A stretch of 44,242 bases of DNA from a virus. Below are positions 6,160 to 28,078 of this stretch, in pieces. The stretch covers positions 1-44,242 of IMG/VR virus record IMGVR_UViG_3300045988_084446. One strand, 5' to 3'. A model generated the notes under the pieces. That model did not search any database and had not been told where the DNA came from. It saw only the letters and a list, made by a program, of their open reading frames with translations. The position numbers and the translations under genes were made by a program. The first letter of the stretch is position 1. Each line of letters starts with the position of its first letter.

Positions 6160-6759
6160 ATGATGGATAAGATCGATGTCTGTAATCTTGCGCTTTCGCG
6201 GATTGGTATTGAAAACATTGAAACATTGGCAGAGGCGAGTGAACCTGCACGCGTGTGCGGTCAGTTCTATGACCATTGTCGCCGTGTTGTTTTGCGGAAA
6301 TATCCGTGGACGTGGGCCATGCGTCGCGTGCAGCTTGCAGAGCTTACAGATAAGCCGCCGGGATTTTTTTATGCGTATCGCTATCCTTCCGGTTGTGTTG
6401 CGCTGCGAAAACTCTATAATGCCTGTTTTAACAATATCCCTGCCTATACAGGGTATCAGATTATCGGCGACAAGTCGGGTCGTGTTATCTGTACGGATGC
6501 GGCAAATGCCTCGGCAGAGTATACGGCGGACATCGAGGATACAGGGCTCTTTGATGAGCAGTTTATTGAGGCACTTAGTTGGAAGCTGGCGGGAGCCATT
6601 GCATTTAAGCTGACGGGGAATGCACAGCTTCCGGGATACTGTGAGGAGCAGTATATGACGCTGTTCTTGGATGCTGTTGCCAACAACGAGGACGAGCAAA
6701 ACACAGAAGAAATAGAGCCGTATACACTTATCGCGGCACGATTCGGAGGGGATATTTGA
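6160..6759 (+). CDS. Tail tubular protein A / gatekeeper (T7 gp11-like)
   Basis: 199 aa against T7 gp11's 196 aa. N-terminal pattern NLALSRIGIENIETLAEASEPARVCGQFYDHCRRVVLRKYPWTW resembles gp11 NDILASIGEPPVSTLEG...ARRILNKINRQIQSRGWTF. Followed by a gp12-sized gene. Confidence 0.55.
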   Translation: MMDKIDVCNLALSRIGIENIETLAEASEPARVCGQFYDHCRRVVLRKYPWTWAMRRVQLAELTDKPPGFFYAYRYPSGCVALRKLYNACFNNIPAYTGYQIIGDKSGRVICTDAANASAEYTADIEDTGLFDEQFIEALSWKLAGAIAFKLTGNAQLPGYCEEQYMTLFLDAVANNEDEQNTEEIEPYTLIAARFGGDI

Positions 6760-9050
6760 TGGCAGGAGGTCAGATGTATCCACTCAAGCCTAGTTTTGCG
6801 GGCGGCGAGCTTACGCCGGCCCTCTATGGTCGAACGGATTTGCAGAAATATGACGTAGGCGCATCAAGGCTTGAGAACATGATTGTCCTGCGCTATGGCG
6901 GTGCGACACGTCGACCTGGCTTTCGCCATGTGGCAAAGACGCAGGACGGAAAGAAAGCCCGACTGATACCGTTTCAGTATTCGACGGATCAGAGTTATGT
7001 ACTTGAGTTCACGGCCGGATGTGTACGGGTATTTACGCAGAGAGGTATTGTTGTCAAAGACGGGGATCCGCTGACGATTCCGACCGAATACGCGGAAGCT
7101 GATCTCTCGGATATCAAATACACGCAGTCCGCTGATGTTCTCTTTCTCGTGCACGCCGATCATCCGCCGATGACGCTCACGCGTTACGGTGTGACAGATT
7201 GGAAACTTGAACGCATGGACATTACAGGGGGGCCCTTTGAAGATCCTAATACGAATGATGGACTGAAAATTGGCGCGTCCGATGTAAAGGGAGATATAAC
7301 GCTTGCTGCGAGCATTGACTATTTCTCAGATGATATGATCGGTTCCTTGATGCGGCTTGGCCATACGATGAGCGGCCAACTAAAGTCTGGGAATCCGCAA
7401 TCTGCGCCGCTCTCGGTTCGGTGTGCACCGGGAGGAACCGTCTATGTGGAATCGTTTGGATTCTGGAATGGCAGCTTTGTTGTGGAGAAGTATGATAAAT
7501 CTACTGGAACGTGGGTTGCACTCCAAGAACAGCATGCCAACCGCACACAGAACTATACCTTGAACTACACGAATAAAGGCGATGACATTGTAGATTATCG
7601 CGTGCGCAGCAATGCTTTTGATACTTCTGTATGGAGTAATGAGAACGAACGGCAGCGCGGCTATGTCACAATACAGACATTCGCGCAGGACTATTACGGT
7701 GTTGCGCGGATAACGTCTGTCACGTCAGGAAAGAGTGCTGCGGCAACGGTTGTTCGTGAGCTCGCGGATACGGATGCGACAAACGACTTTTCGCTCTCAG
7801 CATGGAGTGCAAAGAAAGGCTATCCGCAGGCGGTGAATTTTTTTGAAGATCGTCTTGTCTTTGCAGGGAGCAGAACGAAACCGCAGACCTATTGGGCATC
7901 GCAGTCGGGGGACTACTATAATTTCTGGGTTAACACGCCGCAGCAGGACAGCGACGCTATCACAGGCACGCTTTCGGGCGGTCAGATGAATGGTATTCGC
8001 GCGATTATCCCATTCGGGGAAATGCTCATGCTCACCTCCGGCGGAGAGTACAAAGTCGGCGGTGGGAATGAAGTGTTCACACCGACGAATCAAAAGGCAG
8101 AGCCGCAGGAGTATCGGGGCATCAACAATCTAACACCGGTTGTCATCGGCGGCCGCATTGTCTATGTGCAGCATCAGGGGAGCGTAATCCGCGATCTGAC
8201 TTATAGCTATGATGTGGATAAGTATACGGGAGATGATGTATCACTCCTTGCCGCGCACCTCTTTGAGGGGCATACCATCGTTGCGCTTGCCTACCAACAG
8301 ACACCGAACACTATTGTTTGGTGCGTTCGTGAGGATGGCGTTCTGCTCGGGATGACCTACATCAAAGAGCAGGATGTATATGCGTGGCACAAGCACAAGA
8401 CACTCGGAAATTTTGCGGATGTATGCACGATCTCTGGAAACAGGGAAGAAGAACTCTGGGCAATCGTTGAGCGGGACGGAGCACATTATGTCGAACAGAT
8501 GGGCTCACAGATACGCAACACATCACCGCGGGAACAGTTTTATGTAGACGCGGGGTATATCTATGAGGGCGCACCGAATAACGCGCTCACAGGACTTCTG
8601 TGGCTCTCTGACAAGGATGTGTCCGTGCTTGCCGATGGGAATGTCCTTGCGGATATGCGTGTGAATGAGAGTGGTGTTCTACAACTGCCGAAAGCGTTCA
8701 GCAAGATTACAGTTGGTTTGCCCTTTGAGAGCACGATTCAGACAATGCCAATTGAGTTCAGCGTGCAGGACGGCTCCTATATGGGGCGCAAGAAACGCGT
8801 CTCACGTATGACAATCCTCTTCCGCGATACACGCGGTGGGCTCTATGGCGTGGGGGAAAAGAGACTTGATGCGATCAAGTGGCGCAGCACTGAGAAGTAT
8901 GACAGCCCGATTGCACTTTACAGTGGGAAACGCCATGTCGTCATCCCGAGCGCAAGCTATGAGGATACAGTATATCTGACGATCAAGCAGACTGACCCGC
9001 TGCCGATGACGATCCTGTCCATTGTGCCGGAGGTGGAAGCGGGTGGCTAA
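6759..9050 (+). CDS. Tail tubular protein B / nozzle (T7 gp12-like)
   Basis: 764 aa against gp12's 794 aa. N-terminal LRYGGATRRPGF...QYSTDQSYVLEFTAGCVRVF parallels gp12 LRYPDQGSRQVNGW...EHEQYYAVFTNSGIRVF. Alternative start ATG at 6774. Confidence 0.6.
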   Translation: MAGGQMYPLKPSFAGGELTPALYGRTDLQKYDVGASRLENMIVLRYGGATRRPGFRHVAKTQDGKKARLIPFQYSTDQSYVLEFTAGCVRVFTQRGIVVKDGDPLTIPTEYAEADLSDIKYTQSADVLFLVHADHPPMTLTRYGVTDWKLERMDITGGPFEDPNTNDGLKIGASDVKGDITLAASIDYFSDDMIGSLMRLGHTMSGQLKSGNPQSAPLSVRCAPGGTVYVESFGFWNGSFVVEKYDKSTGTWVALQEQHANRTQNYTLNYTNKGDDIVDYRVRSNAFDTSVWSNENERQRGYVTIQTFAQDYYGVARITSVTSGKSAAATVVRELADTDATNDFSLSAWSAKKGYPQAVNFFEDRLVFAGSRTKPQTYWASQSGDYYNFWVNTPQQDSDAITGTLSGGQMNGIRAIIPFGEMLMLTSGGEYKVGGGNEVFTPTNQKAEPQEYRGINNLTPVVIGGRIVYVQHQGSVIRDLTYSYDVDKYTGDDVSLLAAHLFEGHTIVALAYQQTPNTIVWCVREDGVLLGMTYIKEQDVYAWHKHKTLGNFADVCTISGNREEELWAIVERDGAHYVEQMGSQIRNTSPREQFYVDAGYIYEGAPNNALTGLLWLSDKDVSVLADGNVLADMRVNESGVLQLPKAFSKITVGLPFESTIQTMPIEFSVQDGSYMGRKKRVSRMTILFRDTRGGLYGVGEKRLDAIKWRSTEKYDSPIALYSGKRHVVIPSASYEDTVYLTIKQTDPLPMTILSIVPEVEAGG

Positions 9051-9516: not shown

Positions 9517-10203
9517 ATGGGTGTAGTGCCAATGGTGATTGGAACGCTCTTTACCTCATGGATGCAGGGGCGTGCGCAGCAGGCGCAGGCAGAAGCGGCC
9601 GCTCGGCAGTCCGAACAGAACGCGCAGATCGCGCAGATGAACGCCGATAAGGCACAGGAGACCGCAGAGCGACAAGATGAAAACAACAAGATCAATGTCG
9701 AGAATGAACGGCGTAGGGCGCTCCTGCGGATGGGACAGCAACGGGCGGCAATCGGAGCGAGCGGGGTCACTGCCTCGGGCAGTGCTGCGGCGGCTCTTGC
9801 GGATACAGGATATGCGATCAACGAGCAGACAGGCATGGGCCTCTACAATGGTCGTCAGCAGGTCGATAATATGCTGCAGCAGTCGACAGACTTTCAGAAT
9901 CAGTCCAATTTCCACAGTGCAAACGCACGCAATTATCGGGCCGCCGGCAAGCGTGCAATGATGAACAGTATGCTCACAGGCGCGTTCACTCTCGCGAGTA
10001 ATCTCTATACGGGCGTGAGTTCCGCAGCACAGGAGACCGCAGAGGCGGCAGGCACACAGGTTGGCTCGTTCGGCGGAAAGGATTGGAGCACGGGATTCCA
10101 CGGATGGGGCGGCAAGGACACGAGTTTCGGGCATCACATCGGAAATTATACCGCGCGTGGGTATGGGATACCGCGTCAGAGCACATTTTTTCAAATGAGA
10201 TAA
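9517..10203 (+). CDS. Internal virion protein (T7 gp14 analogue)
   Basis: 228 aa with an N-terminal hydrophobic segment and a Q/A-rich helical region. In the gp14 position. RBS AAAAGGAG. Confidence 0.45.
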   Translation: MGVVPMVIGTLFTSWMQGRAQQAQAEAAARQSEQNAQIAQMNADKAQETAERQDENNKINVENERRRALLRMGQQRAAIGASGVTASGSAAAALADTGYAINEQTGMGLYNGRQQVDNMLQQSTDFQNQSNFHSANARNYRAAGKRAMMNSMLTGAFTLASNLYTGVSSAAQETAEAAGTQVGSFGGKDWSTGFHGWGGKDTSFGHHIGNYTARGYGIPRQSTFFQMR

Positions 10204-10218: not shown

Positions 10219-12384
10219 ATGGATTTTTCACCGTTTCAGAACAAAGAGGGCGTCGGCGCTCCTGCGGCGCAGATCACGCGCGTACAGTACAGCAATCAAG
10301 GCGAACAGGCGCTTGCGCAGGCACAGGGAGAAACCGGAAATGTGCTTGCTAAGGGTGCTATGGCGTTGAAAGATCAGGTGGAGCAGACACAGGCGCTTGC
10401 GGCCAACAACATGTATAACAAGCTCATGAGTGAGGGCACGTTTGAGCTGATGCAGAAGAAAGAGGAGGGCGCTCTCAATATCACGGAGGAGTATGACAAG
10501 CTCCAGCAAAAGACGAGGGATGCCGTATTTGCAAAATACAAAGGTGTCCTGCGTTATGGTACTGGAGCCCGTGCGTTCAATGAGTTCACGGAGCGGGATA
10601 ATGTAACGCGCCGCATGAATGTCATGCGGTATCAGCAGGAGCAGTTTGAAGCATATAAGGACACGCAGTATAAGAATGCTCTTGATGTTTGTAACGATAC
10701 AATCCTCGAATATGGCGGGAATGATGCAGCCATCGATATGGCGTTTAACCGCTCCGATGCCTTGATTGAAGGCAGATGGGGCGGCTATGGGCAAGAGAAG
10801 GTAAAAGAACAACAAGAGGTATTCCGCAGACAGGCAGTCGGTCAGGCGATGTCTCTCGCGATGCAGACAGCGGATTTCAAGCGGATGGATGAGATCTGCA
10901 ATAAGTACGGGCAGTACATGGATGGCAATCAACGGGCGGCGGCGCTTGGCGCAGTGCGGAAGCATGCACAGCAGGAGCTTGAGTTCGGTGAGGCACAGAA
11001 TGCAATCAAGGAGCTTGGCATTGAGGCGTCACGCGATGCGGTCAAAGCATGGGTCCAGAAGAATGCGCATGGGAATACACCGAACCTGGACAGTTTCTAC
11101 GCGTTCTGCAAGCAGACTGAGGGGGCGAAGTATCAGCTTGGCGCTCCTCTCAACGGGGCGAACGGAAAATATGACTGCGGTTCATGGGCGATGCAAGTAG
11201 GCGGGCTCTTTGGAATTCAGTTTGAGAGCCGTTGTGCGGATGAACAGTATGTCCAGTTGAAACAGATGGGAAGGACATTCAGCGATCCTAACGAGCTTCG
11301 TACGGGGGATTTTGTGTACTGGACGGGGACGGGCGCAGAGGAAGGGCAATACGGAATAGCCCATGTAGGCGTTTATGATGGACGGTCTAAAAAGGTGTGG
11401 CAGTCCGGCCTGAATGGTGTTGCAGAAATTGACGTGAACACTTACAAAGTCGTCGGCTTCGGGCGCGGCGTCACGGAAACGCCACTCTCTGACATGGAGA
11501 TTGAGGAGAGAACGGATAAGATTTTCGGTGGGATGCAGAAGCAGCTTGCGGCCCGCGACCGTGAAGATAGTAGGTTGTTTGAGCAGGGGCAGATGGCGAT
11601 TATGCAGCTCCAAAATGATGGACAATATCATTCTGTTGCTGAATATCAGTCCGCCATTACGAGCATCGCAGGGGATAATCCGCGTGTCTCGGTAAAACTG
11701 ATGAACAGCGCGATGAAAGCGGGGCAGGCAGATCAAGCACGAGCAGAAGCAGCGGCGAATCGGCGTGCTGCAGCAGAGGCGGCGGCTCTTAAAATATCGG
11801 GACCGGAGTACAAATATCAGCTCATCAACGCCTTGCAGGCGGGCAAGATCAGCATCAACGATGCTTATGACACGATCATCGGAAATCCGCATATGGAAAA
11901 TAGCATGCGAAAAGAACTGCTGGATGTCATTGATGATTACAAGACCGGAAAAGGCGCCTTTAAGTATGACTGGGGGAGCATCAAACAGGCAGTTAAGACT
12001 GGGCTTGGCGGATATGAAAACGGGATGTTTGATTCGAATTTTGCCGTGGCACAGGATTCGACAGGCTATCTTATTCGTGAGTATCAAAAAGATCATAACG
12101 GAGAAATGCCGTCTCAGCAGTGGATTATTGAGAAGATGGCGGGGGAAATGGCTCCTATGACAATCTCTGGGAGCGGCGGTTTCTTCGGCTTTGGCGGGAA
12201 TAAAATCGATACGAACGAAGCACAACTCTTTAATATCGGTATTGCCAGCGTTGTAGATGCGGGGAATGGAAATTCTATCGTTACGCTGGTTAATGGCGGC
12301 GGCGCGTATCGAGTAAAGACAGATGATCTTATCAATGGGATGCAGGACGGAAAAAGCGGAAAAGAAATCGTATACGGAGGATAA
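10219..12384 (+). CDS. Internal virion/ejection protein with a CHAP/NlpC-P60-type peptidoglycan hydrolase domain (T7 gp15 position)
   Basis: 721 aa. The central segment NGKYDCGSWAMQVGGLF...GDFVYWTGTGAEEGQYGIAHVGVYDG resembles the Cys...His catalytic core of CHAP/NlpC-P60. RBS GAGGAGG. Confidence 0.55.
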   Translation: MDFSPFQNKEGVGAPAAQITRVQYSNQGEQALAQAQGETGNVLAKGAMALKDQVEQTQALAANNMYNKLMSEGTFELMQKKEEGALNITEEYDKLQQKTRDAVFAKYKGVLRYGTGARAFNEFTERDNVTRRMNVMRYQQEQFEAYKDTQYKNALDVCNDTILEYGGNDAAIDMAFNRSDALIEGRWGGYGQEKVKEQQEVFRRQAVGQAMSLAMQTADFKRMDEICNKYGQYMDGNQRAAALGAVRKHAQQELEFGEAQNAIKELGIEASRDAVKAWVQKNAHGNTPNLDSFYAFCKQTEGAKYQLGAPLNGANGKYDCGSWAMQVGGLFGIQFESRCADEQYVQLKQMGRTFSDPNELRTGDFVYWTGTGAEEGQYGIAHVGVYDGRSKKVWQSGLNGVAEIDVNTYKVVGFGRGVTETPLSDMEIEERTDKIFGGMQKQLAARDREDSRLFEQGQMAIMQLQNDGQYHSVAEYQSAITSIAGDNPRVSVKLMNSAMKAGQADQARAEAAANRRAAAEAAALKISGPEYKYQLINALQAGKISINDAYDTIIGNPHMENSMRKELLDVIDDYKTGKGAFKYDWGSIKQAVKTGLGGYENGMFDSNFAVAQDSTGYLIREYQKDHNGEMPSQQWIIEKMAGEMAPMTISGSGGFFGFGGNKIDTNEAQLFNIGIASVVDAGNGNSIVTLVNGGGAYRVKTDDLINGMQDGKSGKEIVYGG

Positions 12385-12396
12385 CGGGAGGCAACT

Positions 12397-15300
12397 ATGG
12401 ATCCGCAGAAAAGAGCAGAAATTGAGCAGATGATGCGCCGCGACGTGGCAAGCGGAAATATCGGCGTCAAGATTAAGATGCCCGGCGAGAACAACAATGA
12501 CGAACTGAACGATATCGTAAACTATGCGCCGACAAGTGAATACACGATTTATGACACGGGCAGACGCGACGACGCGGGCAATCCGATCATGAGCAGCGAC
12601 GTGATGGATTTGATGATGACAAAATCCTATGAGCCGCAGAAAGAATCGGATTGGTCTGTCTCTAATATCGCAGATGCGGTCTATACAAAGCTGCGGGACA
12701 ACTTCTATGATGGCAGTGTTCAGCCCGTCGATTTTGACAATCCATATTACACAAAAGACATGACTGCACCGCCGGAGCCGATTACAGGGAAAGACCTTAT
12801 CAAAGGGGCTATGCCCGAGAGTTTTCAGGCATCCAAACTCTATGCGGATTATTTCTACGGTGAGGACGAAAAACGCGAGCAGATCAAGAAAGCGCATGAC
12901 CTGACGGGGATTCGCGCGGAGACGATTGCCAATGACCCCGATGTATGGGAAAAGGTTATGAAGATTGTCCAGCGTGCAGAAAAACTCAAAAAACTTCCGG
13001 GCATGGTAGATGCGAACGGCGATCTCAATATGAGCCGCGTCTATGAGGCGATGCCGTATCTTCGGGAAATCGTCGAAAAGCGCGGCACGAACGAGGCTGT
13101 CATGATGCTCCAGAATGCCGAGGGACTGCAAACAGTCAATGATGCGTACAGCAATGAGTTTATGCGCTTTGCGGGAAGTGTTGCGACGGGCGTAGAACGT
13201 GGCTACTACAATATCCGTAAACAGTTGACCTATGCGAACGCAATGATCGGCAGACGTAAACTCACCGAAGATGAGCAGAATTGGATTACGGCGCTTGACA
13301 AGAAGAAGGAGGAATTGCCCGAATACTCCTATGGCGGTGTTGGGCAAGCAGTTGGTGCGATGATCGGCGGTGCCGCCGAGAATATCCCGATGATTGCCTC
13401 TGCGCAGGGGATTGGAGCGGTTGCAGGAGGTATCACTCTTGCCGTAACAAAGAACCCAGGTACGGCGGCAAATGTCGGAAGAGCTGCTGCTATTGCCGTT
13501 ATGGGGCTTGAGATCGGTGGCAGTCAGTATGAGGAGAATCTCAGCAAACTGGACGCAAAGGGACGCGCGATGTATACGCCGACAGAGGCGGCTGCGATTT
13601 CGGCGACACAGGGGCTTACCGAGGGTGTAATCGAGCAGCTTGCTTTGCAGAAGATTGCACGCACGATTTTTGGGCGGGGTGAGGCAAAGAGCCTGCGCGA
13701 CCTCTATGCAGGTGCAGGAGCAAAAGATTTGGCACTGGCCGCAGAAGGGGCAACTGCAAACGAAGCGGCGCGTGCACTCATCAAGGAACGGATTCTTGGT
13801 GCGGCAAAAGCGGGCGCAATTACGTTTAATACGGAGCTGCAGGAGGAGTTTGCCCAGCAGGTCTCGGATATGGTCATCGAGAACATGGCGCAGATGGCAC
13901 TCAAGGGGGACGATGCCGAGATTGCATCCGTCAGAGAAATCCTGCAGAAATCTACCACCGCCGCAATCGAAGCCGCGCCCTCTATCGCCGGATTCGGGCT
14001 TCTCGGCTTTGGCGGTCATGTGGGTGCCCATACGAATACGATGCTGCATGCTCGCTCTCACATGGAACAGCTCGTGAAGAATCGTCTCTATCGGAGCGTC
14101 AATGAGAATCAGCATCTCATGAATACTGTTGAGGCGGTAGGGAATAATCTGAAGAACGTACAGGAACTCCAAGGCAAAGCACCTGATCTTGTGAATGAGA
14201 TGCTTGATTCGCAGAACCGCCGCTATGGGATAGAGACAACGGCCGTAGATATTGTATCACTCAATCAGGAAGAGAGCGGCGCGGAGCTTGTGCAGGAGAT
14301 CGCCGCCGCAAATAATATCAGCGCGGAGGAACTGCAGGCGTGCGCGGACGGGACGGGGATGCTGCCCGTCAAAACCTCGACTCTCCAACAGATGACAACG
14401 CATCTGGATGAGGGCAAACGTAAGGCACTCTTTCAGAATATCACAAAGTCCTCTGATCTCTACACGGACAAGCAGGCACAACATGAGGCGAAGATCGTCA
14501 AGGAGATTCTAGGTGCATTCCGTGAGAAGACGGAAGAGGAGGTCGGCGATTCTGTTGACCGTTATGTTGAGAGCGCGTTTGCAGAACATGAGCATCGTGC
14601 GCTTGCTCGGGATATTTTGCTTGCAGACGTCAATCATCCTGCGGCAGAAATTAAGCGGCGTATGAACCGTCTGGATTCCGATCTCGCAGAACTGACAGCC
14701 GTACAGAGTGACGGTGGTGCGGAATCGGCGGAGTATCTTGCACATATCCAGCCCGAGATCGACAAGATCAATGCGCAGAAGGCGGCGCTTTCGACTGTTG
14801 AGGGCACAATAAAAGGCCTCCAACCCGGGGATGTTGTCGCAACGGCGGAACTGTCCCCTGAGGCAAGAGGCGTCTATCATGAGCTTGCGGGTCAGCTTGG
14901 TGATGCCAAGAGCAAGAAAGCCCGCACGGCTGCGCGTGCCTCTGCGCTTCTTACTGCGCGCTATGCTGAGCGTATGGCGAAAATTTACAGCGAGGTAAAG
15001 GGCGAGCCGTACACCGCCGCAGACTATATGCGCGAACATCTCCGTGTGGATGCGCGTGCGGATGACAAGAAAAGAGAGGCGGCGAAGAAAAAGGCAGAGG
15101 TCGTCAAGGATTTCATTGACACGCATTTCCCCGATGCCGCCGAACGCGAGATGGCAGTCATTGCAACGATGCAGGATGCCGTAAGCCCCGCGAAGGGATG
15201 GCGTAGGCTCTATAACGACTTTGTGGAAGATCGCGATGAACTTCTACGTCCTGCGCTGGATGCACTGGGGCGCGGGATGGGCAACGGTGTCGATATTGTT

Positions 15301-18300
15301 CCGATTGATGATGATGGACGCGGAATACGTGTGTCCAATAATGAACCCTGGTATCGATACTTTTACAAGGAGCACGGGCGACCGCCGCGCAAGGGGGAAC
15401 TCACCGACCTTGCCTATCGTCTCACCGTCGGTGATGCATCCGCACCGAAAATCGAAGGATGGGCGCCGGCATCGCAGGAAGATATAGACGCGATGGAGGC
15501 CGCAAAAGGTCAGCTTGACGAACTGAACGGCTACATCCATACCCTTGAAAATATCAAGGAACGCATGATGCAGATGGATACGGAAGCGTTGAATCAGGAT
15601 GAGGCGCAGACGGGAGTGTTCGGGGACAGGGAAAAAGCAATTGCTGTGCGTGAGATTCGTAATCTTGTTCCGCTGGAGGTTGTTCTAACGGGGAAACCTT
15701 TGGATAAGAAGGCGGCAGAAGCTGTTTTTTCGACCTTTGGCGAAGTAGAAAATCCGCGTTATGGAACGTATGCGACATTCCCGAAAAGTATGGTCGGCAA
15801 GATTATCAAGCATCGTGGTTTGGATGTATCTCAGATGCTTACTGATATTCCACGGCTGTTTTCTTCTTCTGTACTGGCCCTTGTTGAGCCGGAGTACAAA
15901 AAAGAAGGACATAAGGAACATCCTAATATACTTGCCTATCATCACTATGTCAATAAATTTACGGCGGATGGTACGACATACTATATACGTTTTTCGCTCA
16001 GAGAAGAGAAAACAAAGAACCGCGCAAAACCAAGCGCAAAACGCATTCTTCACTCGACGGGAATCAGTGATATTCAAATCTACGAGGAAAACAAAAAAGA
16101 CGTTTCCTCTCAACGTATCCGGGTTAGTGACCCGGGCGAAGAGAGCAAAACGTCTTTTGTTGATCATAGATTAGCAGAACTTTTCGATTCTGTCAAGGAT
16201 ATTCCTGCGGATGAGAATGCAGAAACCTTAGAGCAATCCGCATGGCACGGCACGCCGCATGATTTCCGCGAGTTCCTGCTTGAGATGATCGGCACGGGTG
16301 AGGGCGCACAGACACACGGTTGGGGACTGTATTTTGCGCAGAATCGGGAGGTGTCGGAGTGGTATAAAGATGTATTAGGGGAGGTTCAACAAGCGATTAT
16401 CCACGCCGGCGATAAAACGTATGCCGTGCACCCTGACGGTTATCGCGTAGAGAGGAATAGCGGCAAACCGCTGAAAGAAGGTTCTTCAATTGAAATCGCG
16501 CTTTCTGCGTTTGAGGACAGCAATGCCAATGTAAAGCAAGCAATCAGAGAGACTGAGGAATATCTTGAAAGAATGGAGCGTATAAAAGATACCGATGTGC
16601 GTGAAAAAAACAAGGACCTCATACGCGAAGCTCTGAAAATTTTGCAAGAAGAAGCAGATACATGGAATTTGGAAAAGAAAAAATCAAGTCTTTTTCATGT
16701 CGAAATCCCCGACAATGACGTTCTTCTCGACGAGCAGAAGCCGTTTGACGAGCAGCCGCAGTTCGTGCAGGAGAAGCTGAGAGAGGTGTTTGCCGATGAG
16801 GACAATAATAGAAAAGCTCGTTTTGCCAAAGAAATAAAAAGCTACGAGGCTAAAATCAAGGACTATGACCTTGTACTCAGTGAAAACGCAACGATTGAAG
16901 AGAGACAAGCGGCGGCAGAACGCCTTATACAAGGCGGGTCTGTGTATGGAGTCCCCTTAGAACGGGCTTTAGGCCCCGAGTTTAGACAAGATTTTCAGCT
17001 GGGGAGAGAGGATGTTGAGTACTATAAAGAGCAAACGCAAGAGGCTCTTGATAACTACCAAACGATCCTTAAGAGTTATAGGAATGGCAAGGCAATTTAT
17101 GAAAGTCTTTCATATTCGCTTGGCAGTCCCAAAGCAGCATCTCTCGCGTTGAACGAGGTCGGTATCAAGGGCATCACCTACGACGGACAGCGCGACGGTC
17201 GTTGCTTTGTCATCTTCGATGATCAGGCAATCCAAATCATCGAGAAGTATAACCAAGATCACGCGCACGGGGCGAAGGGGAATATCACGGCGACGCTTGG
17301 CGGTACGCAACGTCTGATTTCTCTCATGCAGGTGGCAGATCAGTCGACGTTTATGCACGAGATGGCGCATAACTTCCTGTTTGATTTGGAACATATCGCA
17401 GAAGTTGCACCAGAGAGCCGCTATGCCAAAGACCTTGCCGCAATCCAGAAATGGGCGACGTGGACGAAAGGTGCGGCGGACGAGTACGTGGGGACAGCTT
17501 CTGCGGCAGAGTTCCGCAACCGTGAGGAGAAAATTCTTGCAGCAGAGAAGAAGGGAGATGCAGCAGAGACAGAACGCCTCAAGCGTGAATGGATGCAGGA
17601 GCGTTTTGCCCGTGGGTTTGAGGAATACCTTCGCAGCGGGGAAGCACCTGCACAGGGATTACGTGCTGTGTTCCGTCGCTTCAAGGCATGGCTCACGCGG
17701 ATTTACAAGGATGTCACGGGTGCGGGTGTGCGCGCATCTGCTGAGGTCGAAGCAATCATGGCGCGTATGATTGCAACAGACGAGGAGATCGAAGCGGCGG
17801 CGGTCGTCAAACGTGCGCAGCGTCTCCAAAAGATTGATCCTGAACTTCTCAATGCGGATTCTGCCGAGACGATGATTCAGTGGGAGACAGAGGCCAAGGA
17901 GCGCGCAAAGGAAACGCTGCTCAAAGAGCTTATCCGTGAGATGCAAGGGCGCGACGTTGACGCACACATGGAGGAATACGAAGCACAGCTGAAAGCTGAG
18001 ATGCGGGAGAATCCCGTTTGGCAGGCGGAGGCGGTTGCGGAGACATTTGGCGTTGGTCAGGTCATCGCAAGCGGCTATTATCCTACGGTGGAGTCGTATG
18101 AAAAGGCACTCAAAGATGCCGGCGGCGGATTCGACGCAGCTTATAATCGTCAGATGCGCGAGGAGCGGGAACGCTACAAGACAGAAATGCCGAACGCAGA
18201 GGCGATTGCACAGCGAGCAGAAGAGGTGCTTGCATCACAGGAATACACCGCACGTCAGACAGCCCTTGAAGGAGAACTCCTGAACGAGTATATCAAGGCC

Positions 18301-21300
18301 TATGACAACGCCCCGCAGCGTCTCAAAGATGCGATGATCGGCGTTGCGCGTGCACTGGAACGTGAGGAGGATGCGCCGTTGGAAAAGGCGGTGACGGCTC
18401 TCAAATATGCGTTCCGCTGGCAGGAGAAACAGGCGCAGGAGATTGATGATTTGCGGGCGCTCCTCTCTTCCGCGAAAGAATCAGGAGAGGAAGATCGCAC
18501 AAAGATGCGTGAGAAGTTCGGGGAGGCGTTTAACCGACTCAAACTCTCGGCGGCGCAGAACCTCGAAGCCGTGCGCAGCCTCCGTGATTCGGCGGCGGGA
18601 AGAGTTGCTGCGATGCGTGCATATGCACAGCAGCACCTTGAGAACGCTCCAACCCACGAGGCGACGAATACGCGTCATTGGATGCGGCAGGTACAGAGCG
18701 CCGCAAAAGAGACAGAACGTCATCTCACGAATATGCTCCGCAAGAATAATGGAATTGAGAAGGAGGACACAGGCGACAAAGACCTTGCGGCGGCACGTAC
18801 GGCAAAGACCCGTCAGCTTGCAATGGAGGCAATGACGCATGAGAGCGTCAAACTGAAACGCGAGCTCGATCGTATGGTGAAATACTTTGCCCGCCGGGAG
18901 AAGAATCTTGCCAATGACAAGACGGGCAAGATTGACGGAAATCACCGCTATTTCATTCACCATTTACTCTATGTGTTTGGTCTTCGTCGCTCCGATGGTG
19001 TGCCTCTCATGGGAGAAGGTGCGCGTAGTTGGTCGGAATTGATGCAAGAGATCAAGGACTCCAACGATGGCTTTGATGGCGTGGATATTCCCGAATGGCT
19101 CACTTCTGCGGCAACGTCCCGCGATACGCAGCGAAAGTATACGGAACTCTCCATGCAGGAACTCCGTGATCTGCGTATGCTCGTTGAATATCTCTATGTG
19201 ACGGGGCGCAACAAGAACACGCTCCTCACATCAGGTGAGAACATCGATGAGGTCGCGGCTCGTATGTATCAGAACTATGAGGAGCATATCGGTGAGCAGG
19301 ACGGCGGAAAAGAAGCTCACACCTATATGGTGCAGCTTTTGAAGCCGGAAACAATGCTCAAGGTCATCGGTGGCAAGAGCGGTGCGATTGTAGACTATCT
19401 CTACAATACGCTCTTTGATGCACAGGAAAAAAAGACGGAGGCACTTGAGGAGAACGCAAAACGATTGGAAGTGATCATTGGACAATACTACACGCAGAAA
19501 GACAGGCGCAAAGCGTGGAGCAAGAAACTCGGGATAAATCTCACGGATGGCACAGAACTGACAAAGGAGAATGTGCTCTCTATGGCTCTCAACTGGGGCA
19601 ACGAGGGCAACCGTTCCCGCCTCGTCGCAGGTCTCTCGACGAAAACACCGTATATAGAGAAGGATGTCGAGGAGATTTTTGCAAAGACGATGACCAAGAA
19701 AGACTGGGCATTCGTGCAGGAGATATGGGATTATCTCAATGAGCACGGCGATGCGGTCAATGAGGTCGTCGAAAAGAGCGCCGGCACGCCGATGAAGCGT
19801 GTTGCACCGGATGAATTTACGATCGAGGCATCGACAGGAGAGTTGCTGACCATTCGCGGCGGGTACTATCCGATTCGGTATGACCCGAAACGTTCTGAGC
19901 GTGCAGCAGATCAGGAGCTTGCAACTGTCGCCGAATCGGTTGGTGGCGCTATGGCGTTTGGGTCTGGAATGGGCTCAACGAAGAACCGTGCAAACGGGGC
20001 TCCGCTGGGGCGGCCGCTTGACCTCTCTTTGGATGTCATGTATCGCCATATCGATCAGCAAATCCATATTGCCGCGATGCGCCTTGCTTGCCGTGATGTC
20101 TATAAGCTACTCAACCATTCGGCGGTTAAAGAACCGATCTTGCAGACGCTCGGAAAAGACGCATATGACAGTCTGAAACGATGGGTTGAAAATACATGGC
20201 AAGAGCCAATGAATAACAATCTCTACATTGAGACTAAAGCGGAGGAGTGGCGCGCGAACACGGTAACGGCAATCATGGCGTTTCGTGTGTCGACGGCACT
20301 CCTTAATGCGTCCAATATTATGCCGATGGCAGATCGACTCGGTACAGTCAATGCAGTTCAGGCAATGTTGCAGTACCTCCGGCACCCGCAGAGGATCCGT
20401 CAATTCGTACTCAATGATTCGGCGTTTATGCGGAACCGTGCTCATAATATGGATCGCGATCTGAATACCAAAGGAAAAGACATTTTCGGCGGAAAGAACT
20501 CCGTTCGGAAGTGTCTTATTAAGTATGGGACATGGCTCATGGAGGAGACAGACATGCTCTGCAGTGTGCCAACCTATTATTGGACATATCAGGGGCGGTA
20601 CAACAAGGAGGTAGCGGACGGGACAGATGAGATTATTGCCCGTGAGCGTGCGCACAGAGAAGCCCACGAGGCAGTACGTTCGATCTTTGGCTCTGCAGAT
20701 TCGATTGACCGATCTGCGGTACAGCGTTCACAGAGTGGGCTTGTCAAGGCATTTACGCCATTCTTCAGCTTCTTCAATGCACAGATGAATGCAGTGTGGG
20801 AGAAGTATTATGCAGGGCGTTATGACAAGCACAAGAGCAACTTTGTTGAGCGTTATTCCGGGTTTGTTCGTTCCTATCTTTTCCGTTTTGTCGCAATGGC
20901 TGCAATCGAAACGATGATTCGGCAAAGCCTTGAAGCTGTTTCGGCCGGAAGTGGTGATAAAAAAGATAAAGACGAATGGTATAAGAAATTTTTGAAGCAG
21001 TGGGCGGCAAATTCTCTCGGGAGCGTCGCAAGCGGATTCCCGGTGATCAATATGGTTGGCGAGATCGCACAAGGGATGATTACAGGCAAACTGCAGCAGG
21101 GGCGCAATAGTGGTGTTGTATTCGCTGCTGTTGGGCGACTTACCGACCCCATCCAGATGGCGCATTCTTTGCAAAGCGACAAGTCCAAGATTGATGCGAT
21201 TGATTTTGGACGCGCCCTGACAAAGGGAATCGCCGGGACGATCTATGCTGTTCCGGATACCTTGACCGATGGCTTCTGGAATACGGCACGCTTCATGACC

Positions 21301-21384
21301 GACAATTACCGTCTCAATAATCCAGATGATCTGCGTGAATTTATCGCAAAGACAATTCTGGATAAGAAACTCAAACAGAAATAG
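12397..21384 (+). CDS. Giant 2995-aa ejection/core 'polyvalent' protein (T7 gp16 position) with an H-Y-E-type ADP-ribosyltransferase motif and a zincin-like HExxH motif
   Basis: Uninterrupted 8988-nt ORF with RBS GGGAGG. A Gly/Ala-rich hydrophobic stretch (GGVGQAVGAMIGGAAENIPMIASAQGIGAVAGGITLAV) looks membrane-inserting. SAWHGTPHDF...GWGLYFA matches ART motifs 1 and 2 (PARP LWHGS / GIYFA; diphtheria toxin YHGT). FMHEMAHNF is a zincin HExxH. Confidence 0.6.
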   Translation: MDPQKRAEIEQMMRRDVASGNIGVKIKMPGENNNDELNDIVNYAPTSEYTIYDTGRRDDAGNPIMSSDVMDLMMTKSYEPQKESDWSVSNIADAVYTKLRDNFYDGSVQPVDFDNPYYTKDMTAPPEPITGKDLIKGAMPESFQASKLYADYFYGEDEKREQIKKAHDLTGIRAETIANDPDVWEKVMKIVQRAEKLKKLPGMVDANGDLNMSRVYEAMPYLREIVEKRGTNEAVMMLQNAEGLQTVNDAYSNEFMRFAGSVATGVERGYYNIRKQLTYANAMIGRRKLTEDEQNWITALDKKKEELPEYSYGGVGQAVGAMIGGAAENIPMIASAQGIGAVAGGITLAVTKNPGTAANVGRAAAIAVMGLEIGGSQYEENLSKLDAKGRAMYTPTEAAAISATQGLTEGVIEQLALQKIARTIFGRGEAKSLRDLYAGAGAKDLALAAEGATANEAARALIKERILGAAKAGAITFNTELQEEFAQQVSDMVIENMAQMALKGDDAEIASVREILQKSTTAAIEAAPSIAGFGLLGFGGHVGAHTNTMLHARSHMEQLVKNRLYRSVNENQHLMNTVEAVGNNLKNVQELQGKAPDLVNEMLDSQNRRYGIETTAVDIVSLNQEESGAELVQEIAAANNISAEELQACADGTGMLPVKTSTLQQMTTHLDEGKRKALFQNITKSSDLYTDKQAQHEAKIVKEILGAFREKTEEEVGDSVDRYVESAFAEHEHRALARDILLADVNHPAAEIKRRMNRLDSDLAELTAVQSDGGAESAEYLAHIQPEIDKINAQKAALSTVEGTIKGLQPGDVVATAELSPEARGVYHELAGQLGDAKSKKARTAARASALLTARYAERMAKIYSEVKGEPYTAADYMREHLRVDARADDKKREAAKKKAEVVKDFIDTHFPDAAEREMAVIATMQDAVSPAKGWRRLYNDFVEDRDELLRPALDALGRGMGNGVDIVPIDDDGRGIRVSNNEPWYRYFYKEHGRPPRKGELTDLAYRLTVGDASAPKIEGWAPASQEDIDAMEAAKGQLDELNGYIHTLENIKERMMQMDTEALNQDEAQTGVFGDREKAIAVREIRNLVPLEVVLTGKPLDKKAAEAVFSTFGEVENPRYGTYATFPKSMVGKIIKHRGLDVSQMLTDIPRLFSSSVLALVEPEYKKEGHKEHPNILAYHHYVNKFTADGTTYYIRFSLREEKTKNRAKPSAKRILHSTGISDIQIYEENKKDVSSQRIRVSDPGEESKTSFVDHRLAELFDSVKDIPADENAETLEQSAWHGTPHDFREFLLEMIGTGEGAQTHGWGLYFAQNREVSEWYKDVLGEVQQAIIHAGDKTYAVHPDGYRVERNSGKPLKEGSSIEIALSAFEDSNANVKQAIRETEEYLERMERIKDTDVREKNKDLIREALKILQEEADTWNLEKKKSSLFHVEIPDNDVLLDEQKPFDEQPQFVQEKLREVFADEDNNRKARFAKEIKSYEAKIKDYDLVLSENATIEERQAAAERLIQGGSVYGVPLERALGPEFRQDFQLGREDVEYYKEQTQEALDNYQTILKSYRNGKAIYESLSYSLGSPKAASLALNEVGIKGITYDGQRDGRCFVIFDDQAIQIIEKYNQDHAHGAKGNITATLGGTQRLISLMQVADQSTFMHEMAHNFLFDLEHIAEVAPESRYAKDLAAIQKWATWTKGAADEYVGTASAAEFRNREEKILAAEKKGDAAETERLKREWMQERFARGFEEYLRSGEAPAQGLRAVFRRFKAWLTRIYKDVTGAGVRASAEVEAIMARMIATDEEIEAAAVVKRAQRLQKIDPELLNADSAETMIQWETEAKERAKETLLKELIREMQGRDVDAHMEEYEAQLKAEMRENPVWQAEAVAETFGVGQVIASGYYPTVESYEKALKDAGGGFDAAYNRQMREERERYKTEMPNAEAIAQRAEEVLASQEYTARQTALEGELLNEYIKAYDNAPQRLKDAMIGVARALEREEDAPLEKAVTALKYAFRWQEKQAQEIDDLRALLSSAKESGEEDRTKMREKFGEAFNRLKLSAAQNLEAVRSLRDSAAGRVAAMRAYAQQHLENAPTHEATNTRHWMRQVQSAAKETERHLTNMLRKNNGIEKEDTGDKDLAAARTAKTRQLAMEAMTHESVKLKRELDRMVKYFARREKNLANDKTGKIDGNHRYFIHHLLYVFGLRRSDGVPLMGEGARSWSELMQEIKDSNDGFDGVDIPEWLTSAATSRDTQRKYTELSMQELRDLRMLVEYLYVTGRNKNTLLTSGENIDEVAARMYQNYEEHIGEQDGGKEAHTYMVQLLKPETMLKVIGGKSGAIVDYLYNTLFDAQEKKTEALEENAKRLEVIIGQYYTQKDRRKAWSKKLGINLTDGTELTKENVLSMALNWGNEGNRSRLVAGLSTKTPYIEKDVEEIFAKTMTKKDWAFVQEIWDYLNEHGDAVNEVVEKSAGTPMKRVAPDEFTIEASTGELLTIRGGYYPIRYDPKRSERAADQELATVAESVGGAMAFGSGMGSTKNRANGAPLGRPLDLSLDVMYRHIDQQIHIAAMRLACRDVYKLLNHSAVKEPILQTLGKDAYDSLKRWVENTWQEPMNNNLYIETKAEEWRANTVTAIMAFRVSTALLNASNIMPMADRLGTVNAVQAMLQYLRHPQRIRQFVLNDSAFMRNRAHNMDRDLNTKGKDIFGGKNSVRKCLIKYGTWLMEETDMLCSVPTYYWTYQGRYNKEVADGTDEIIARERAHREAHEAVRSIFGSADSIDRSAVQRSQSGLVKAFTPFFSFFNAQMNAVWEKYYAGRYDKHKSNFVERYSGFVRSYLFRFVAMAAIETMIRQSLEAVSAGSGDKKDKDEWYKKFLKQWAANSLGSVASGFPVINMVGEIAQGMITGKLQQGRNSGVVFAAVGRLTDPIQMAHSLQSDKSKIDAIDFGRALTKGIAGTIYAVPDTLTDGFWNTARFMTDNYRLNNPDDLREFIAKTILDKKLKQK

Positions 21385-21395
21385 GAGGTATCAAC

Positions 21396-22475
21396 ATGAC
21401 TGTTGAAAATCCGAATGTCAAGAATACGTATAGGGGAAATGGTTCTACAACCGTTTTCCCTTTTACATTTCTGCTCAACCCTGAGGATGTGAATAATGTT
21501 GTCGTTACTCTGACCGATGAAAACGGAACGGAGACTTCGACGACGGATTTTGTGTTGTCTCTGAGTGATAAGAATGTGCTCTATCCAAAGAGCGGAACGC
21601 AGCCGCTGCCGAACGGGTGGAAAATCACCATTCAGCGTCAAATCCCTTACACTCAAACACTCAATCTGATTAGTCAAGGGATATTCTATGCCGAGGACAT
21701 AGAAGCGCAGCTTGATCGACAGGAGATGCAGATACAGCAACTCGCAGAGATTGTCGAGCGCACTGTGCGCGTCGCGATCAGCTCTGACATTGCCCCTGCC
21801 GAGCTGATCGCAAAAATCTTCCAGACGGGTGTTGATGTTGCTGCTCAGCTTCTCGCCGCACAGCAAAGCGCATCTGCGGCGCAGCAGGCCGCACAGAACG
21901 CGAAAGAAAGCGAAAACAGCGCATCGCATGCCGTTGCCCTCGCGACCAATGCAAAAAATACCGCAGAGGAACATCGGCGTGCCGCCGAATCCGCCGCGGG
22001 CGCAGCGCAAACGGCGCGAACGGAAGCAGAGCAGAGCAGACAGGAAGCCGGCAAAAGTCAAACGGCAAGCGCCGCATCCGAAACGCACGTCAAGGCAATG
22101 GAGGACAATATTACCTCAATAAAACGACACATCGACGGAATCAACGTCGAAGTCGACAAAGCCGAATCTGCTGCAAAGAGCGCACAGGAAAGCGCAAAAA
22201 GCGCCGCAGAATCTGCCGCCGCCGCACAAAAAGCCGTCGGTACATACTCAAAAGCCGATCTGGATAAAAAATTCCAGGAGCTCGACCAACAGAACGCCTC
22301 TAAATTTGTTGCGAAATCCGGCGACAGCATGACAGGTGCGCTCACGGTACCTGCTCTGACCGCTACCGGAAAGATCAAAGCTGATGGCGGAGTAGAGGGA
22401 AATGCCTCGACGGCATCGGCGCTCAGCACAAATGTCCTGACGTTTGCCAACGGAACAAAAATCTGGGTGGAGTGA
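21396..22475 (+). CDS. Tail fibre protein with a T7 gp17-type N-terminal domain
   Basis: N-terminus NTYRGNGSTTVFPFTFLL matches T7 gp17 YQLDGSNRDFNIPFEYL. The central region is Ala/Gln/Ser-rich and coiled-coil-like. RBS AGGAGGT. Confidence 0.65.
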   Translation: MTVENPNVKNTYRGNGSTTVFPFTFLLNPEDVNNVVVTLTDENGTETSTTDFVLSLSDKNVLYPKSGTQPLPNGWKITIQRQIPYTQTLNLISQGIFYAEDIEAQLDRQEMQIQQLAEIVERTVRVAISSDIAPAELIAKIFQTGVDVAAQLLAAQQSASAAQQAAQNAKESENSASHAVALATNAKNTAEEHRRAAESAAGAAQTARTEAEQSRQEAGKSQTASAASETHVKAMEDNITSIKRHIDGINVEVDKAESAAKSAQESAKSAAESAAAAQKAVGTYSKADLDKKFQELDQQNASKFVAKSGDSMTGALTVPALTATGKIKADGGVEGNASTASALSTNVLTFANGTKIWVE

Positions 22476-26961: not shown

Positions 26962-28065
26962 TTAAGCCTCAATCGGTACTGCTATCAGTTTATTTCTGAA
27001 TATGATAACTCGATCAAGGAGCCTCTCCCAAAATAATTTTCTTTCTGCTTTCTCCATATCGGCATAGCCGGTGTCTGCGGTATCAATGCTCGCCAATAAT
27101 GCCGCCTCTATGCGATCCTCTCGCCAATACACGTTGTATGGGCAGTTACTGTGCGTGTATGATCGACACACATAATAAATGCGCACACATGTCTTTTGAC
27201 GATGGTATCTCGGCGTGAGTCCACGCCCGCATTTAGGGCATTTTAATAGACGACTGAAAAGATAGATGTTATCTGTTCGCGGGTGTTGAGTACGTCCCTC
27301 GAATGCTTTTTGTACGGTTGCGAACAAGTCATCATCGATCAAGGCTGGACAGAAATTTTTGACGCCGTAATATTCGCCGATATAAATTTTGTTTTGTAGA
27401 GCGCGACCAACGGCTCCTTCTGTTTTGCCGTAGTGATATTTTCCCAACAGCATCCGATACGTTGCAAGCACAGAATGACCTTCCGCAAAATACGCAAACA
27501 TATCTTGTACCATTGGCGCCTTTTTCCTGTCGATTACAATATGCTTGTTCTTGCTGATTTTGTATCCATCAGGTATGTGGCCAGTGATAACCTTTCCTGA
27601 ACGTAAAAGTCCCTGCTGCACATATTTGACGCGGTCACTTGTCTGATCGCTCTCGTGCTGTGCAAGTGTCAGTTTGAGGTTGAGCATCAACCTTCCGCTG
27701 CTAGTTGTTGTATTGTACAGAGATTCCTGTGAGCACTCCCAGTCTACGCTATGCGCATCAAGGATATCCTGCACAATATAATAGTCCCGAACGTTTCGGA
27801 ACCATCGATCAAGGCACTTAAATATGATGACATCAACGTCTCCTGTTTGTACATCCTCTAAGAGCCGTTGCAGACCTTTGCGAAGGTGAGGGGATTTGCG
27901 GGCGCTGACACCCTCATCGGCGTAAACCCCCACTATTTTGTAAGCGTGTTGTTTGGCGTATTGGTATAAATCATGCTCCTGCTCGGCGAGGGAGTATCCA
28001 TGCCGAGCCTGCTCCTCTGTTGACACGCGAATATAAAGCGCCGCGCGCTTCTTCGATCGGTTCAT
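26962..28065 (-). CDS. Serine recombinase (resolvase/invertase catalytic domain plus recombinase and zinc-ribbon domains; small serine-integrase type)
   Basis: N-terminus MNRSKKRAALYIRVSTEEQ carries the catalytic Ser motif. C-terminal Cys cluster CPKCGRG...C...C. RBS AAGGAG. Confidence 0.8.
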   Translation of the reverse strand: MNRSKKRAALYIRVSTEEQARHGYSLAEQEHDLYQYAKQHAYKIVGVYADEGVSARKSPHLRKGLQRLLEDVQTGDVDVIIFKCLDRWFRNVRDYYIVQDILDAHSVDWECSQESLYNTTTSSGRLMLNLKLTLAQHESDQTSDRVKYVQQGLLRSGKVITGHIPDGYKISKNKHIVIDRKKAPMVQDMFAYFAEGHSVLATYRMLLGKYHYGKTEGAVGRALQNKIYIGEYYGVKNFCPALIDDDLFATVQKAFEGRTQHPRTDNIYLFSRLLKCPKCGRGLTPRYHRQKTCVRIYYVCRSYTHSNCPYNVYWREDRIEAALLASIDTADTGYADMEKAERKLFWERLLDRVIIFRNKLIAVPIEA

Positions 28066-28078
28066 CTAAAGATTCTCC

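What the first reader, a model, noticed from the sequence alone, without database searches (positions are those of the whole stretch)
12397..21384. A 2995-aa virion 'polyvalent' protein combining a putative H-Y-E ADP-ribosyltransferase, a zincin metallopeptidase and a membrane-inserting Gly-rich segment
One ORF occupies 9 kb, about 20% of the genome, in the position of the T7 gp16 ejection/core protein. It contains WHGTPH...GWGLYFA, which matches motifs 1 and 2 of H-Y-E-clade ADP-ribosyltransferases (PARP LWHGS/GIYFA; diphtheria toxin YHGT). It also carries FMHEMAHNF, a zincin-like HExxH, and a Gly/Ala-rich hydrophobic stretch (GGVGQAVGAMIGGAAENIPMIASAQGIGAVAGGITLAV). This fits the injected effector proteins that phages deliver with their DNA to modify host targets or defences. 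Placing such effectors inside a gp16-like ejection protein of a temperate podovirus is unusual.
Basis: partly seen in the sequence, partly recalled or inferred. Interest (0 to 1): 0.7.

Follow-up and report, generated by a model that had tools for sequence, protein, structure and literature searches.

The report
Giant effector-carrying phage ejection protein
The 9-kb gene is real and encodes the large internal "ejection" protein of a Selenomonas prophage, carrying a swappable cargo cassette with a well-supported ADP-ribosyltransferase domain; this type of "polyvalent" protein is already described, so it is a good new example rather than a new kind of system.

Summary
It is no chimera: a 98%-identical full-length protein and about 100 relatives of 2500-3400 aa exist, one in a prophage in a complete Selenomonas chromosome. 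It occupies the T7 gp16 (IVP-D) slot of a BPP-1-like temperate podovirus. Residues ~1615-2900 are homologous to BPP-1 Bbp10 (hhalign E 9e-73), which the literature lists as an IVP-D homologue.

The protein has three parts: a lineage-specific N-terminal scaffold, a variable cargo cassette (LPD3 + ART) and a conserved HExxH + Bbp10-like C-terminal scaffold.

Cargo-carrying ejection proteins are already published (Iyer 2017; Hardies 2016), and this ART subtype occurs in more than 17,000 protein clusters. Verdict: new member of a known kind, modest interest.

The parts
12397..21384 (+). Giant ORF, 2995 aa: the IVP-D/gp16-class internal virion (ejection) protein with polyvalent cargo
   Evidence: Uninterrupted ORF. 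A 98%-identical full-length homologue, P0056, and about 118 relatives of at least 2400 aa exist. Same gene order in a Selenomonas prophage.
12397..14676 (+). N-terminal scaffold, aa 1-760; lineage-specific, no known domain
   Evidence: Present in about 85% of the 118 giant relatives. No Pfam or PHROG hit. No match in deposited phages and none to BPP-1 Bbp10.
13333..13446 (+). Gly/Ala-rich, mildly hydrophobic segment, aa 313-350 (GxxxG-type repeats flanking a conserved E-N-x-P)
   Evidence: Kyte-Doolittle maximum 1.58. The stretch is conserved family-wide, but hydropathy is 1.0-1.6 in relatives. Membrane insertion is inferred, not shown.
14677..15582 (+). Two conserved modules of unknown function, aa ~771-904 and ~916-1062
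   Evidence: Shared with many polyvalent homologues. Their order is swapped in the distant relatives P0126-P0130.
15706..16023 (+). LPD3 domain, aa 1104-1209 (large polyvalent-protein-associated domain 3)
   Evidence: Pfam PF18798, E 4.7e-10, 40 bits against a cut-off of 27. This segment has GC3 0.41 against 0.57-0.58 in the scaffolds, and only about 44% of giant relatives have it.
16219..17289 (+). ADP-ribosyltransferase domain, aa 1275-1631: three conserved blocks (1275-1327, 1428-1464, 1554-1631) separated by two helical inserts. Predicted catalytic residues are H1284 (nt 16246-16248), Y1312 (16330-16332) and D1608/D1609 (17218-17223).
17302..17796 (+). HExxH domain, aa ~1636-1800: a predicted beta-hairpin-like stretch (KGNITAT..QRLISLM), then HEMAH (aa 1654-1658, nt 17356-17370) and the helix QERFARGFEEYL (aa 1734-1745, nt 17596-17631). 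Candidate zincin-like metallopeptidase.
   Evidence: H1654, E1655, H1658, E1735 and E1742 are invariant. The motifs are conserved in BPP-1 Bbp10, Carin1 gp32 and Nsp-JY18 and in 106-117 of 118 relatives. The fold is not confirmed.
17797..21381 (+). Bbp10-like IVP-D C-terminal scaffold, aa ~1801-2995
   Evidence: PHROG 9880, E 5e-126. tblastn to 52 podovirus records. hhalign to Bbp10: probability 100%, E 9e-73 over aa 1615 to ~2900. Bbp10 is listed as an IVP-D homologue in PMC4819975.
9517..10203 (+). Neighbour: T7 gp14-family internal virion protein (IVP-B slot)
   Evidence: Pfam PF24072, 38.2 bits against a cut-off of 27; PHROG 418.
10219..12384 (+). Neighbour: 721-aa protein in the gp15/IVP-C slot, possibly carrying an NlpC/P60 cell-wall peptidase
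   Evidence: Same size and position as BPP-1 bbp11 (720 aa, with a lytic transglycosylase). The NlpC/P60 hit is weak: 21 bits against a cut-off of 23. There is no significant pairwise similarity to bbp11.

Best explanation
The ORF encodes the largest internal virion (ejection) protein, the T7 gp16 / IVP-D equivalent, of a BPP-1/epsilon15-like temperate podovirus that lysogenises Selenomonas (oral, diderm Negativicutes). It has three parts. (i) A lineage-specific N-terminal scaffold with a conserved Gly/Ala-rich segment. (ii) A horizontally exchangeable cargo cassette, which here holds an LPD3 domain and an intact H-Y-D ADP-ribosyltransferase of the polyvalent-protein type. (iii) A nearly universal HExxH...E domain followed by the helical Bbp10-like scaffold.

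Proposed mechanism. The protein is packaged on the portal together with the gp14-like and gp15-slot proteins. On infection it is ejected through the tail, and the scaffolds help build the trans-envelope conduit. The cargo thereby reaches the cytoplasm with the DNA. There the ART uses NAD+ to ADP-ribosylate an unknown host target, so as to favour establishment of the phage or blunt a defence. The HExxH domain sits exactly at the cargo/scaffold boundary and most plausibly acts as a cis-acting metallopeptidase that releases the cargo.

Shown here: ORF integrity, synteny, homology to Bbp10, cassette variability, the ART fold and the conserved triad. Inferred: packaging and ejection, ART activity and target, peptidase activity, membrane insertion.
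For: ORF and context. Not an artefact, and a prophage of Selenomonas. IVP-D class: hhalign to Bbp10, probability 100%, E 9e-73; Bbp10 is listed as an IVP-D homologue, and IVPs are known to host cytoplasm-destined domains (PMC4819975).

Cassette. Coverage drops to 44-70% over aa ~1050-1600, against 85-100% in the flanks. Cassette length ranges from 378 to 1268 aa in about 40 clusters. Other domains fill the slot in relatives: canonical ART-PolyVal, LPD23, RadC. GC3 dips to 0.41-0.51 against 0.57-0.58 in the scaffolds.

HExxH. The HExxH and Glu-helix motifs are invariant across hosts from three phyla. The MPTase autoprocessing model comes from PMC5512222.
Confidence: 0.6

Rival explanations
1. 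The ART domain is not a protein-modifying effector. It acts on another substrate: as an NAD+-degrading or NAD-phosphorylase-type enzyme, as a nucleic-acid ADP-ribosyltransferase, or as an anti-defence enzyme that modifies an immune complex.
Against: The best-scoring enzyme matches are protein-modifying PARPs and diphtheria toxin. Iyer et al. place this clade next to protein-modifying ARTs. Nothing computed here discriminates between substrates.
Confidence: 0.25
2. The HExxH domain is not a cargo-releasing autoprotease. It is either a structural metal-binding or helical element of the ejection scaffold, or a cell-wall (muralytic) peptidase used during envelope penetration.
For: No peptidase fold or HMM was recovered. 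The domain belongs to the conserved scaffold, not to the cargo, and is kept in every lineage whatever the cargo. Ejection proteins of other podoviruses carry wall-degrading peptidases, for example the M23 domain of A4 gp28.
Against: The H-E-x-x-H plus distal Glu helix is exactly the zincin ligand set, and it is invariant at 25% overall identity. Wall-degrading activity already seems to be provided by the neighbouring gene (SLT in BPP-1 bbp11, a weak NlpC/P60 hit here). The position at the cargo/scaffold junction fits a processing role.
Confidence: 0.3
3. The central cassette is evolutionary baggage: recombination debris riding on an essential ejection protein, with the ART inactive or irrelevant in this phage.
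For: The ART is absent or truncated in many relatives that have the same scaffolds. Examples are P0110, P0124 and P0102, where motif 1 is fused directly to the HExxH-domain start or to strand 5. Only 64 of 118 relatives have all three motifs.
Against: In this protein all three blocks and the catalytic residues are intact and match residues that are invariant across 23 diverse homologues. The subtype is under selection in more than 17,000 clusters. The model is confident across the core.
Confidence: 0.1
4. The 9-kb ORF is an assembly or annotation artefact: a chimera of several genes.
For: Some database relatives are 500-1400-aa fragments, which could reflect split genes.
Against: P0056 is collinear and 98% identical over all 2995 aa. 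Dozens of independent assemblies give 2500-3400-aa proteins. One lies in a finished 2.37-Mb Selenomonas chromosome with identical neighbours.
Confidence: 0.01

Closest known systems
Polyvalent proteins of phages and conjugative elements (Iyer, Burroughs, Anand, de Souza, Aravind 2017, PMC5512222)
   Same: It is a giant multidomain protein encoded among virion genes. It contains an LPD domain, an H-Y-D ART of the polyvalent type and an HExxH domain. Its homologues carry PBECR, RadC, LPD23, DdrB-ParB and SLT domains. The predicted logic is the same: packaged, injected, possibly self-processed.
   Different: The cargo here is embedded between two long scaffolds of an ejection protein, not appended to MuF, portal or vRNAP modules. 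The HExxH domain is not recognised by any Pfam model. The ART is a long-insert variant that scores below the PF18760 cut-off.
Bordetella phage BPP-1 Bbp10 and relatives (IVP-D homologues of the epsilon15 subgroup; Hardies et al. 2016, PMC4819975)
   Same: Same gene slot and neighbours. The HExxH domain and C-terminal scaffold are homologous (hhalign E 9e-73). Bbp10 also carries polyvalent domains (LPD22, PBECR1) upstream of the HExxH motif.
   Different: Bbp10 is 2052 aa, with a different N-terminus and a nuclease rather than an ART as cargo. There is no detectable similarity in the first ~1600 aa.
T7 gp16 (internal virion protein D)
   Same: Syntenic position after the gp14- and gp15-like genes. 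Large and predicted to be mostly helical. The homology chain runs through Bbp10 and comes from the literature.
   Different: No direct sequence match to solved T7 gp16 chains. There is no N-terminal lytic transglycosylase. The protein is more than twice as long because of the cargo.
Phage N4 virion RNA polymerase gp50 and Pseudomonas phage H66 gp60
   Same: Precedents for a cytoplasm-acting enzyme embedded in an IVP-D-type ejection protein (PMC4819975). N4 gp50 also has an HExxH 'MPTase' region (PMC5512222).
   Different: The cargo differs (RNA polymerase or methylase rather than an ART). No similarity to the gp50 C-terminal region was detected.
Phage T4 Alt
   Same: A head-packaged, injected ADP-ribosyltransferase that modifies host proteins early in infection. 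It is a functional analogue (PMC5512222).
   Different: Alt belongs to the R-S-E clade, is a separate ~76-kDa protein of a myovirus, and is not part of an ejection scaffold.
Cyanophage A-4L gp27 (PDB 9k3a chain B; PMC12002296)

Membership tests
Polyvalent proteins (Iyer et al. 2017) | One polypeptide combining several effector-type or LPD domains | tested here: met
   LPD3 above the Pfam cut-off. ART fold. HExxH domain. Homologues carry PF18760, PF18798, PF18819, PF18838, PF18809 and PF04002.
Polyvalent proteins (Iyer et al. 2017) | Encoded among virion or late genes of a (pro)phage | tested here: met
   The gene lies between the gp14/gp15-slot genes and the tail fibre. Same layout in a Selenomonas prophage.
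Polyvalent proteins (Iyer et al. 2017) | Packaged in the virion and delivered into the host | not testable with these tools
   Needs virion proteomics and infection assays.
ART-PolyVal (PF18760) / Tox-ART-HYD2 clade | Pfam gathering score reached | tested here: not met
   The query scores 23.1-23.4 bits against a cut-off of 31.2. 22 of 23 aligned homologues hit the family at E <= 1e-3, best 1.7e-8.
ART-PolyVal (PF18760) / Tox-ART-HYD2 clade | His in strand 1, Tyr in strand 2, Asp in strand 5 | tested here: met
   H1284, Y1312 and D1608/D1609 are invariant in 23 sequences. The configuration is as described in PMC5512222.
ART-PolyVal (PF18760) / Tox-ART-HYD2 clade | ART fold | tested here: met
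   [not shown]
ART-PolyVal (PF18760) / Tox-ART-HYD2 clade | NAD+-dependent transferase activity | not testable with these tools
   A biochemical assay is required.
Zincin-like metallopeptidase (polyvalent 'MPTase') | HExxH on one helix and a Glu ligand on a downstream helix | tested here: met
   H1654, E1655 and H1658 are invariant, as are E1735 and E1742 in the QERFARGFEEYL helix. The motifs are conserved in Bbp10, Carin1 gp32 and Nsp-JY18.
Zincin-like metallopeptidase (polyvalent 'MPTase') | Three-stranded sheet plus helices core; structural similarity to known zincins | tested here: not met
   [not shown]
Zincin-like metallopeptidase (polyvalent 'MPTase') | Profile match to a peptidase family | tested here: not met
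   No Pfam peptidase hit in any of 14 members at E <= 5. The PDB profile search is empty. hhalign to the N4 gp50 MPTase region gives probability 0.2%.
T7 gp16 / IVP-D ejection proteins | Syntenic position after the gp14- and gp15-like genes, before the tail fibre | tested here: met
T7 gp16 / IVP-D ejection proteins | Sequence homology to recognised IVP-D proteins | tested here: inconclusive
   Homology to Bbp10 is very strong, and Bbp10 is listed as IVP-D in PMC4819975. A direct profile search finds no solved T7 gp16 chain.
T7 gp16 / IVP-D ejection proteins | N-terminal lytic transglycosylase, as in T7 gp16 | tested here: not met
   No SLT or lysozyme hit anywhere in the protein. This feature is known to vary among IVPs (PMC4819975).

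The most novel reading that the evidence does not exclude
Across BPP-1/epsilon15-like podoviruses, the IVP-D ejection protein may be a modular delivery vehicle. An invariant, Pfam-unrecognised HExxH...E domain would sit exactly at the boundary between a hyper-exchangeable cargo cassette and the conserved scaffold, acting as a built-in release protease. The highly conserved ~50-aa N-terminal block of the ART (WHG[ST]P...GTGEGAQxHGWGLYFA) would double as a homologous-recombination junction through which cargo is swapped, which would explain the truncated ART stubs fused to other modules in relatives.
Probability: 0.25. Interest if true: 0.55.

Novelty: new member of a known kind. Interest (0 to 1): 0.3.

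Why it matters
It adds a clear, intact example from an oral diderm Firmicute (Selenomonas) prophage of an effector enzyme built into a podovirus ejection protein. The family offers a natural series of about 100 proteins with the same scaffolds and different cargo. Such a series could be used to test how cargo is released, which host targets injected ARTs hit, and whether ejection proteins could be engineered as protein-delivery vehicles. It does not change current concepts, which already predict injected ARTs in polyvalent proteins and cargo-bearing IVP-D homologues.

Tried and rejected
1. A nucleotide search of the ORF against 50,697 phage records found no match.
2. phmmer of the whole protein, and profiles of A1, A2 and A3, against PDB sequences gave nothing significant. 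There were only sub-threshold tankyrase hits (E ~0.7) that align the HG[ST]/GxYFA motifs.
4. The N-terminal scaffold search (aa 1-760) returned only three fragments of the same lineage, so the origin of that region stays unknown.
5. Pairwise comparison of the 721-aa neighbour with BPP-1 bbp11 was not significant.
7. The assembly-chimera idea was rejected.
8. The 'crystallin beta/gamma motif' name attached to relatives has no support in any Pfam scan here and appears to be a name propagated from the BPP-1 record.


Full report
OBSERVATION. The window holds one ATG-initiated ORF at 12397..21384 on the + strand. It encodes 2995 aa with no internal stop and covers 20.3% of the 44,242-base window. 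By composition, a chance HExxH is expected about 0.1 times in a protein of this length. The motif alone is therefore weak evidence, and its conservation is what counts.

CONTEXT AND ORIGIN. PHROG and Pfam scans give a T7-like structural module: large terminase (320-1648), portal (1903-3615), major capsid (4486-5472), tail tubular A (6160-6759) and B (6756-9050), a T7_gp14-family protein (9517-10203, 38 bits against a cut-off of 27), a 721-aa ORF (10219-12384, with only a sub-threshold NlpC/P60 hit), the giant ORF, a tail fibre (21396-22475) and an amidase. The window also encodes a serine recombinase, a tyrosine integrase and RecT. The ORF has no nucleotide match in deposited phages. At the protein level, a 98%-identical full-length homologue (P0056) and about 118 relatives of at least 2400 aa exist, several of them named as Selenomonas noxia or Selenomonas sp. 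oral taxon 920. One relative, P0087, lies in the finished 2.37-Mb chromosome CP017042 with the same neighbours (portal, capsid, T7_gp14, 721-aa protein, giant, fibre, holin, amidase), followed by host genes. The element is therefore a temperate podovirus or prophage of Selenomonas, and the ORF is not an assembly chimera.

WHICH VIRION PROTEIN IT IS. tblastn against phage records matches only aa ~1590-2960, at 23-27% identity. The hits are the large structural proteins of BPP-1-like, Xanthomonas CP2-like, Pseudomonas, Caulobacter, Vibrio and cyanobacterial podoviruses. The BPP-1 module is collinear with the window: bbp12 (internal virion protein), bbp11 (720 aa, lytic transglycosylase), bbp10 (2052 aa), then tail fibre. 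A family profile aligns to Bbp10 with probability 100% and E 9e-73 over aa 1615 to ~2900. Hardies et al. 2016 list Bbp10 as the IVP-D (T7 gp16) homologue of the epsilon15 subgroup. [quoted passage not shown] I found no direct sequence match to solved T7 gp16 or to any other ejection protein. The gp16 assignment therefore rests on synteny plus the Bbp10 link.

ARCHITECTURE. Mapping 118 giant relatives onto the query shows that aa 1 to ~1050 and aa ~1640-2995 are present in 85-100% of them, while aa ~1050-1600 is present in only 44-70%. The region between fixed anchors ranges from 378 to 1268 aa and falls into about 40 clusters among 99 proteins. In relatives this slot holds LPD3 alone, canonical compact ART-PolyVal domains (66-77 bits), LPD23 or a RadC-like JAB domain. 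In the query, the LPD3 segment (GC3 0.41) and the ART segment (GC3 0.51) differ in composition from the scaffolds (GC3 0.57-0.58). The protein is thus a conserved two-part scaffold with an exchangeable central cargo cassette. BPP-1 Bbp10 (LPD22 + PBECR1) and Cobetia phage Carin1 gp32 (LPD22 + PBECR5) show the same logic upstream of the same HExxH domain.

THE GLY-RICH SEGMENT. The stretch is conserved family-wide (consensus ...GAMIGGAxENxPMIxSxQGxGxVAG...), but its 19-residue hydropathy is 1.0-1.6 in relatives. That is marginal for a transmembrane helix, and it contains a conserved Glu-Asn. Membrane insertion is possible, by analogy with ejection and tape-measure proteins, but it is not shown.

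MECHANISM. Most likely, the protein is packaged on the portal with the gp14-like and gp15-slot proteins and ejected on infection, and its scaffolds contribute to the trans-envelope conduit. The cargo reaches the cytoplasm, where the ART ADP-ribosylates a host target, and the HExxH domain may cleave the cargo free. My estimates are: ART domain real, about 0.9; IVP-D-class virion protein, about 0.85; packaged and ejected, about 0.7; autoprocessing by the HExxH domain, about 0.35.

VERDICT. It is unproven for the zincin and for membrane insertion, and it is wrong that the arrangement is unusual. This is a new member of a known kind, and interest is modest.

Noticed in passing
[not shown]
   Followed up: partly
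window 16219-16380 (aa 1275-1327) and relatives P0102, P0110, P0111, P0124: The ~50-aa ART N-terminal block is 67-75% identical even in otherwise divergent polyvalent proteins and occurs twice in some. In several close relatives it is fused directly to the HExxH-domain start, to strand 5, or to an unrelated module, leaving a truncated ART. It looks like a recombination junction for cassette exchange.
   Followed up: partly
window 15583-16206: The LPD3-containing segment has GC 0.44 and GC3 0.41, against GC3 0.57-0.58 in the flanking scaffold segments of the same ORF. This suggests recent horizontal acquisition of that module.
   Followed up: partly
window 14707-15582 (aa ~771-1062) versus P0126-P0130: Two conserved modules of unknown function (aa 771-904 and 903-1057) appear in the opposite order in distant relatives. 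This is module permutation inside the same protein family.
   Followed up: no
window 10219-12384: The 721-aa protein in the gp15/IVP-C slot is the same size as BPP-1 bbp11 (720 aa, lytic transglycosylase). It shows no significant similarity to bbp11 and has only a sub-threshold NlpC/P60 hit, so the wall-degrading domain may have been exchanged.
   Followed up: partly
window 26962-29498 (-): A serine recombinase (26962-28065) and a tyrosine integrase (28332-29498) lie next to each other in a low-GC region (about 0.43-0.46 over ~25-32 kb). Having two different recombinases in one 44-kb element is unusual enough to note.
   Followed up: no
window 11182-14172 (-): A 996-aa antisense ORF overlaps the 721-aa gene and the start of the giant gene. 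It is probably a by-product of the purine-rich sense strand (positive GC and AT skew, which leaves few stop codons on the complement) and not a gene.
   Followed up: no
P0056, P0070 and BPP-1 bbp10 annotations: Relatives are named 'crystallin beta/gamma motif-containing protein' or 'lysin'. No Pfam scan here supports either name, so these look like labels propagated from the BPP-1 record.
   Followed up: partly
P0176 / P0030 (both with a longest contig of 31,307 bases): In some assemblies the giant gene appears as separate 700-900-aa pieces: an N-terminal scaffold fragment and a cassette fragment whose longest contigs have the same length. I did not check whether these are frameshift artefacts or truly split genes.
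   Followed up: no
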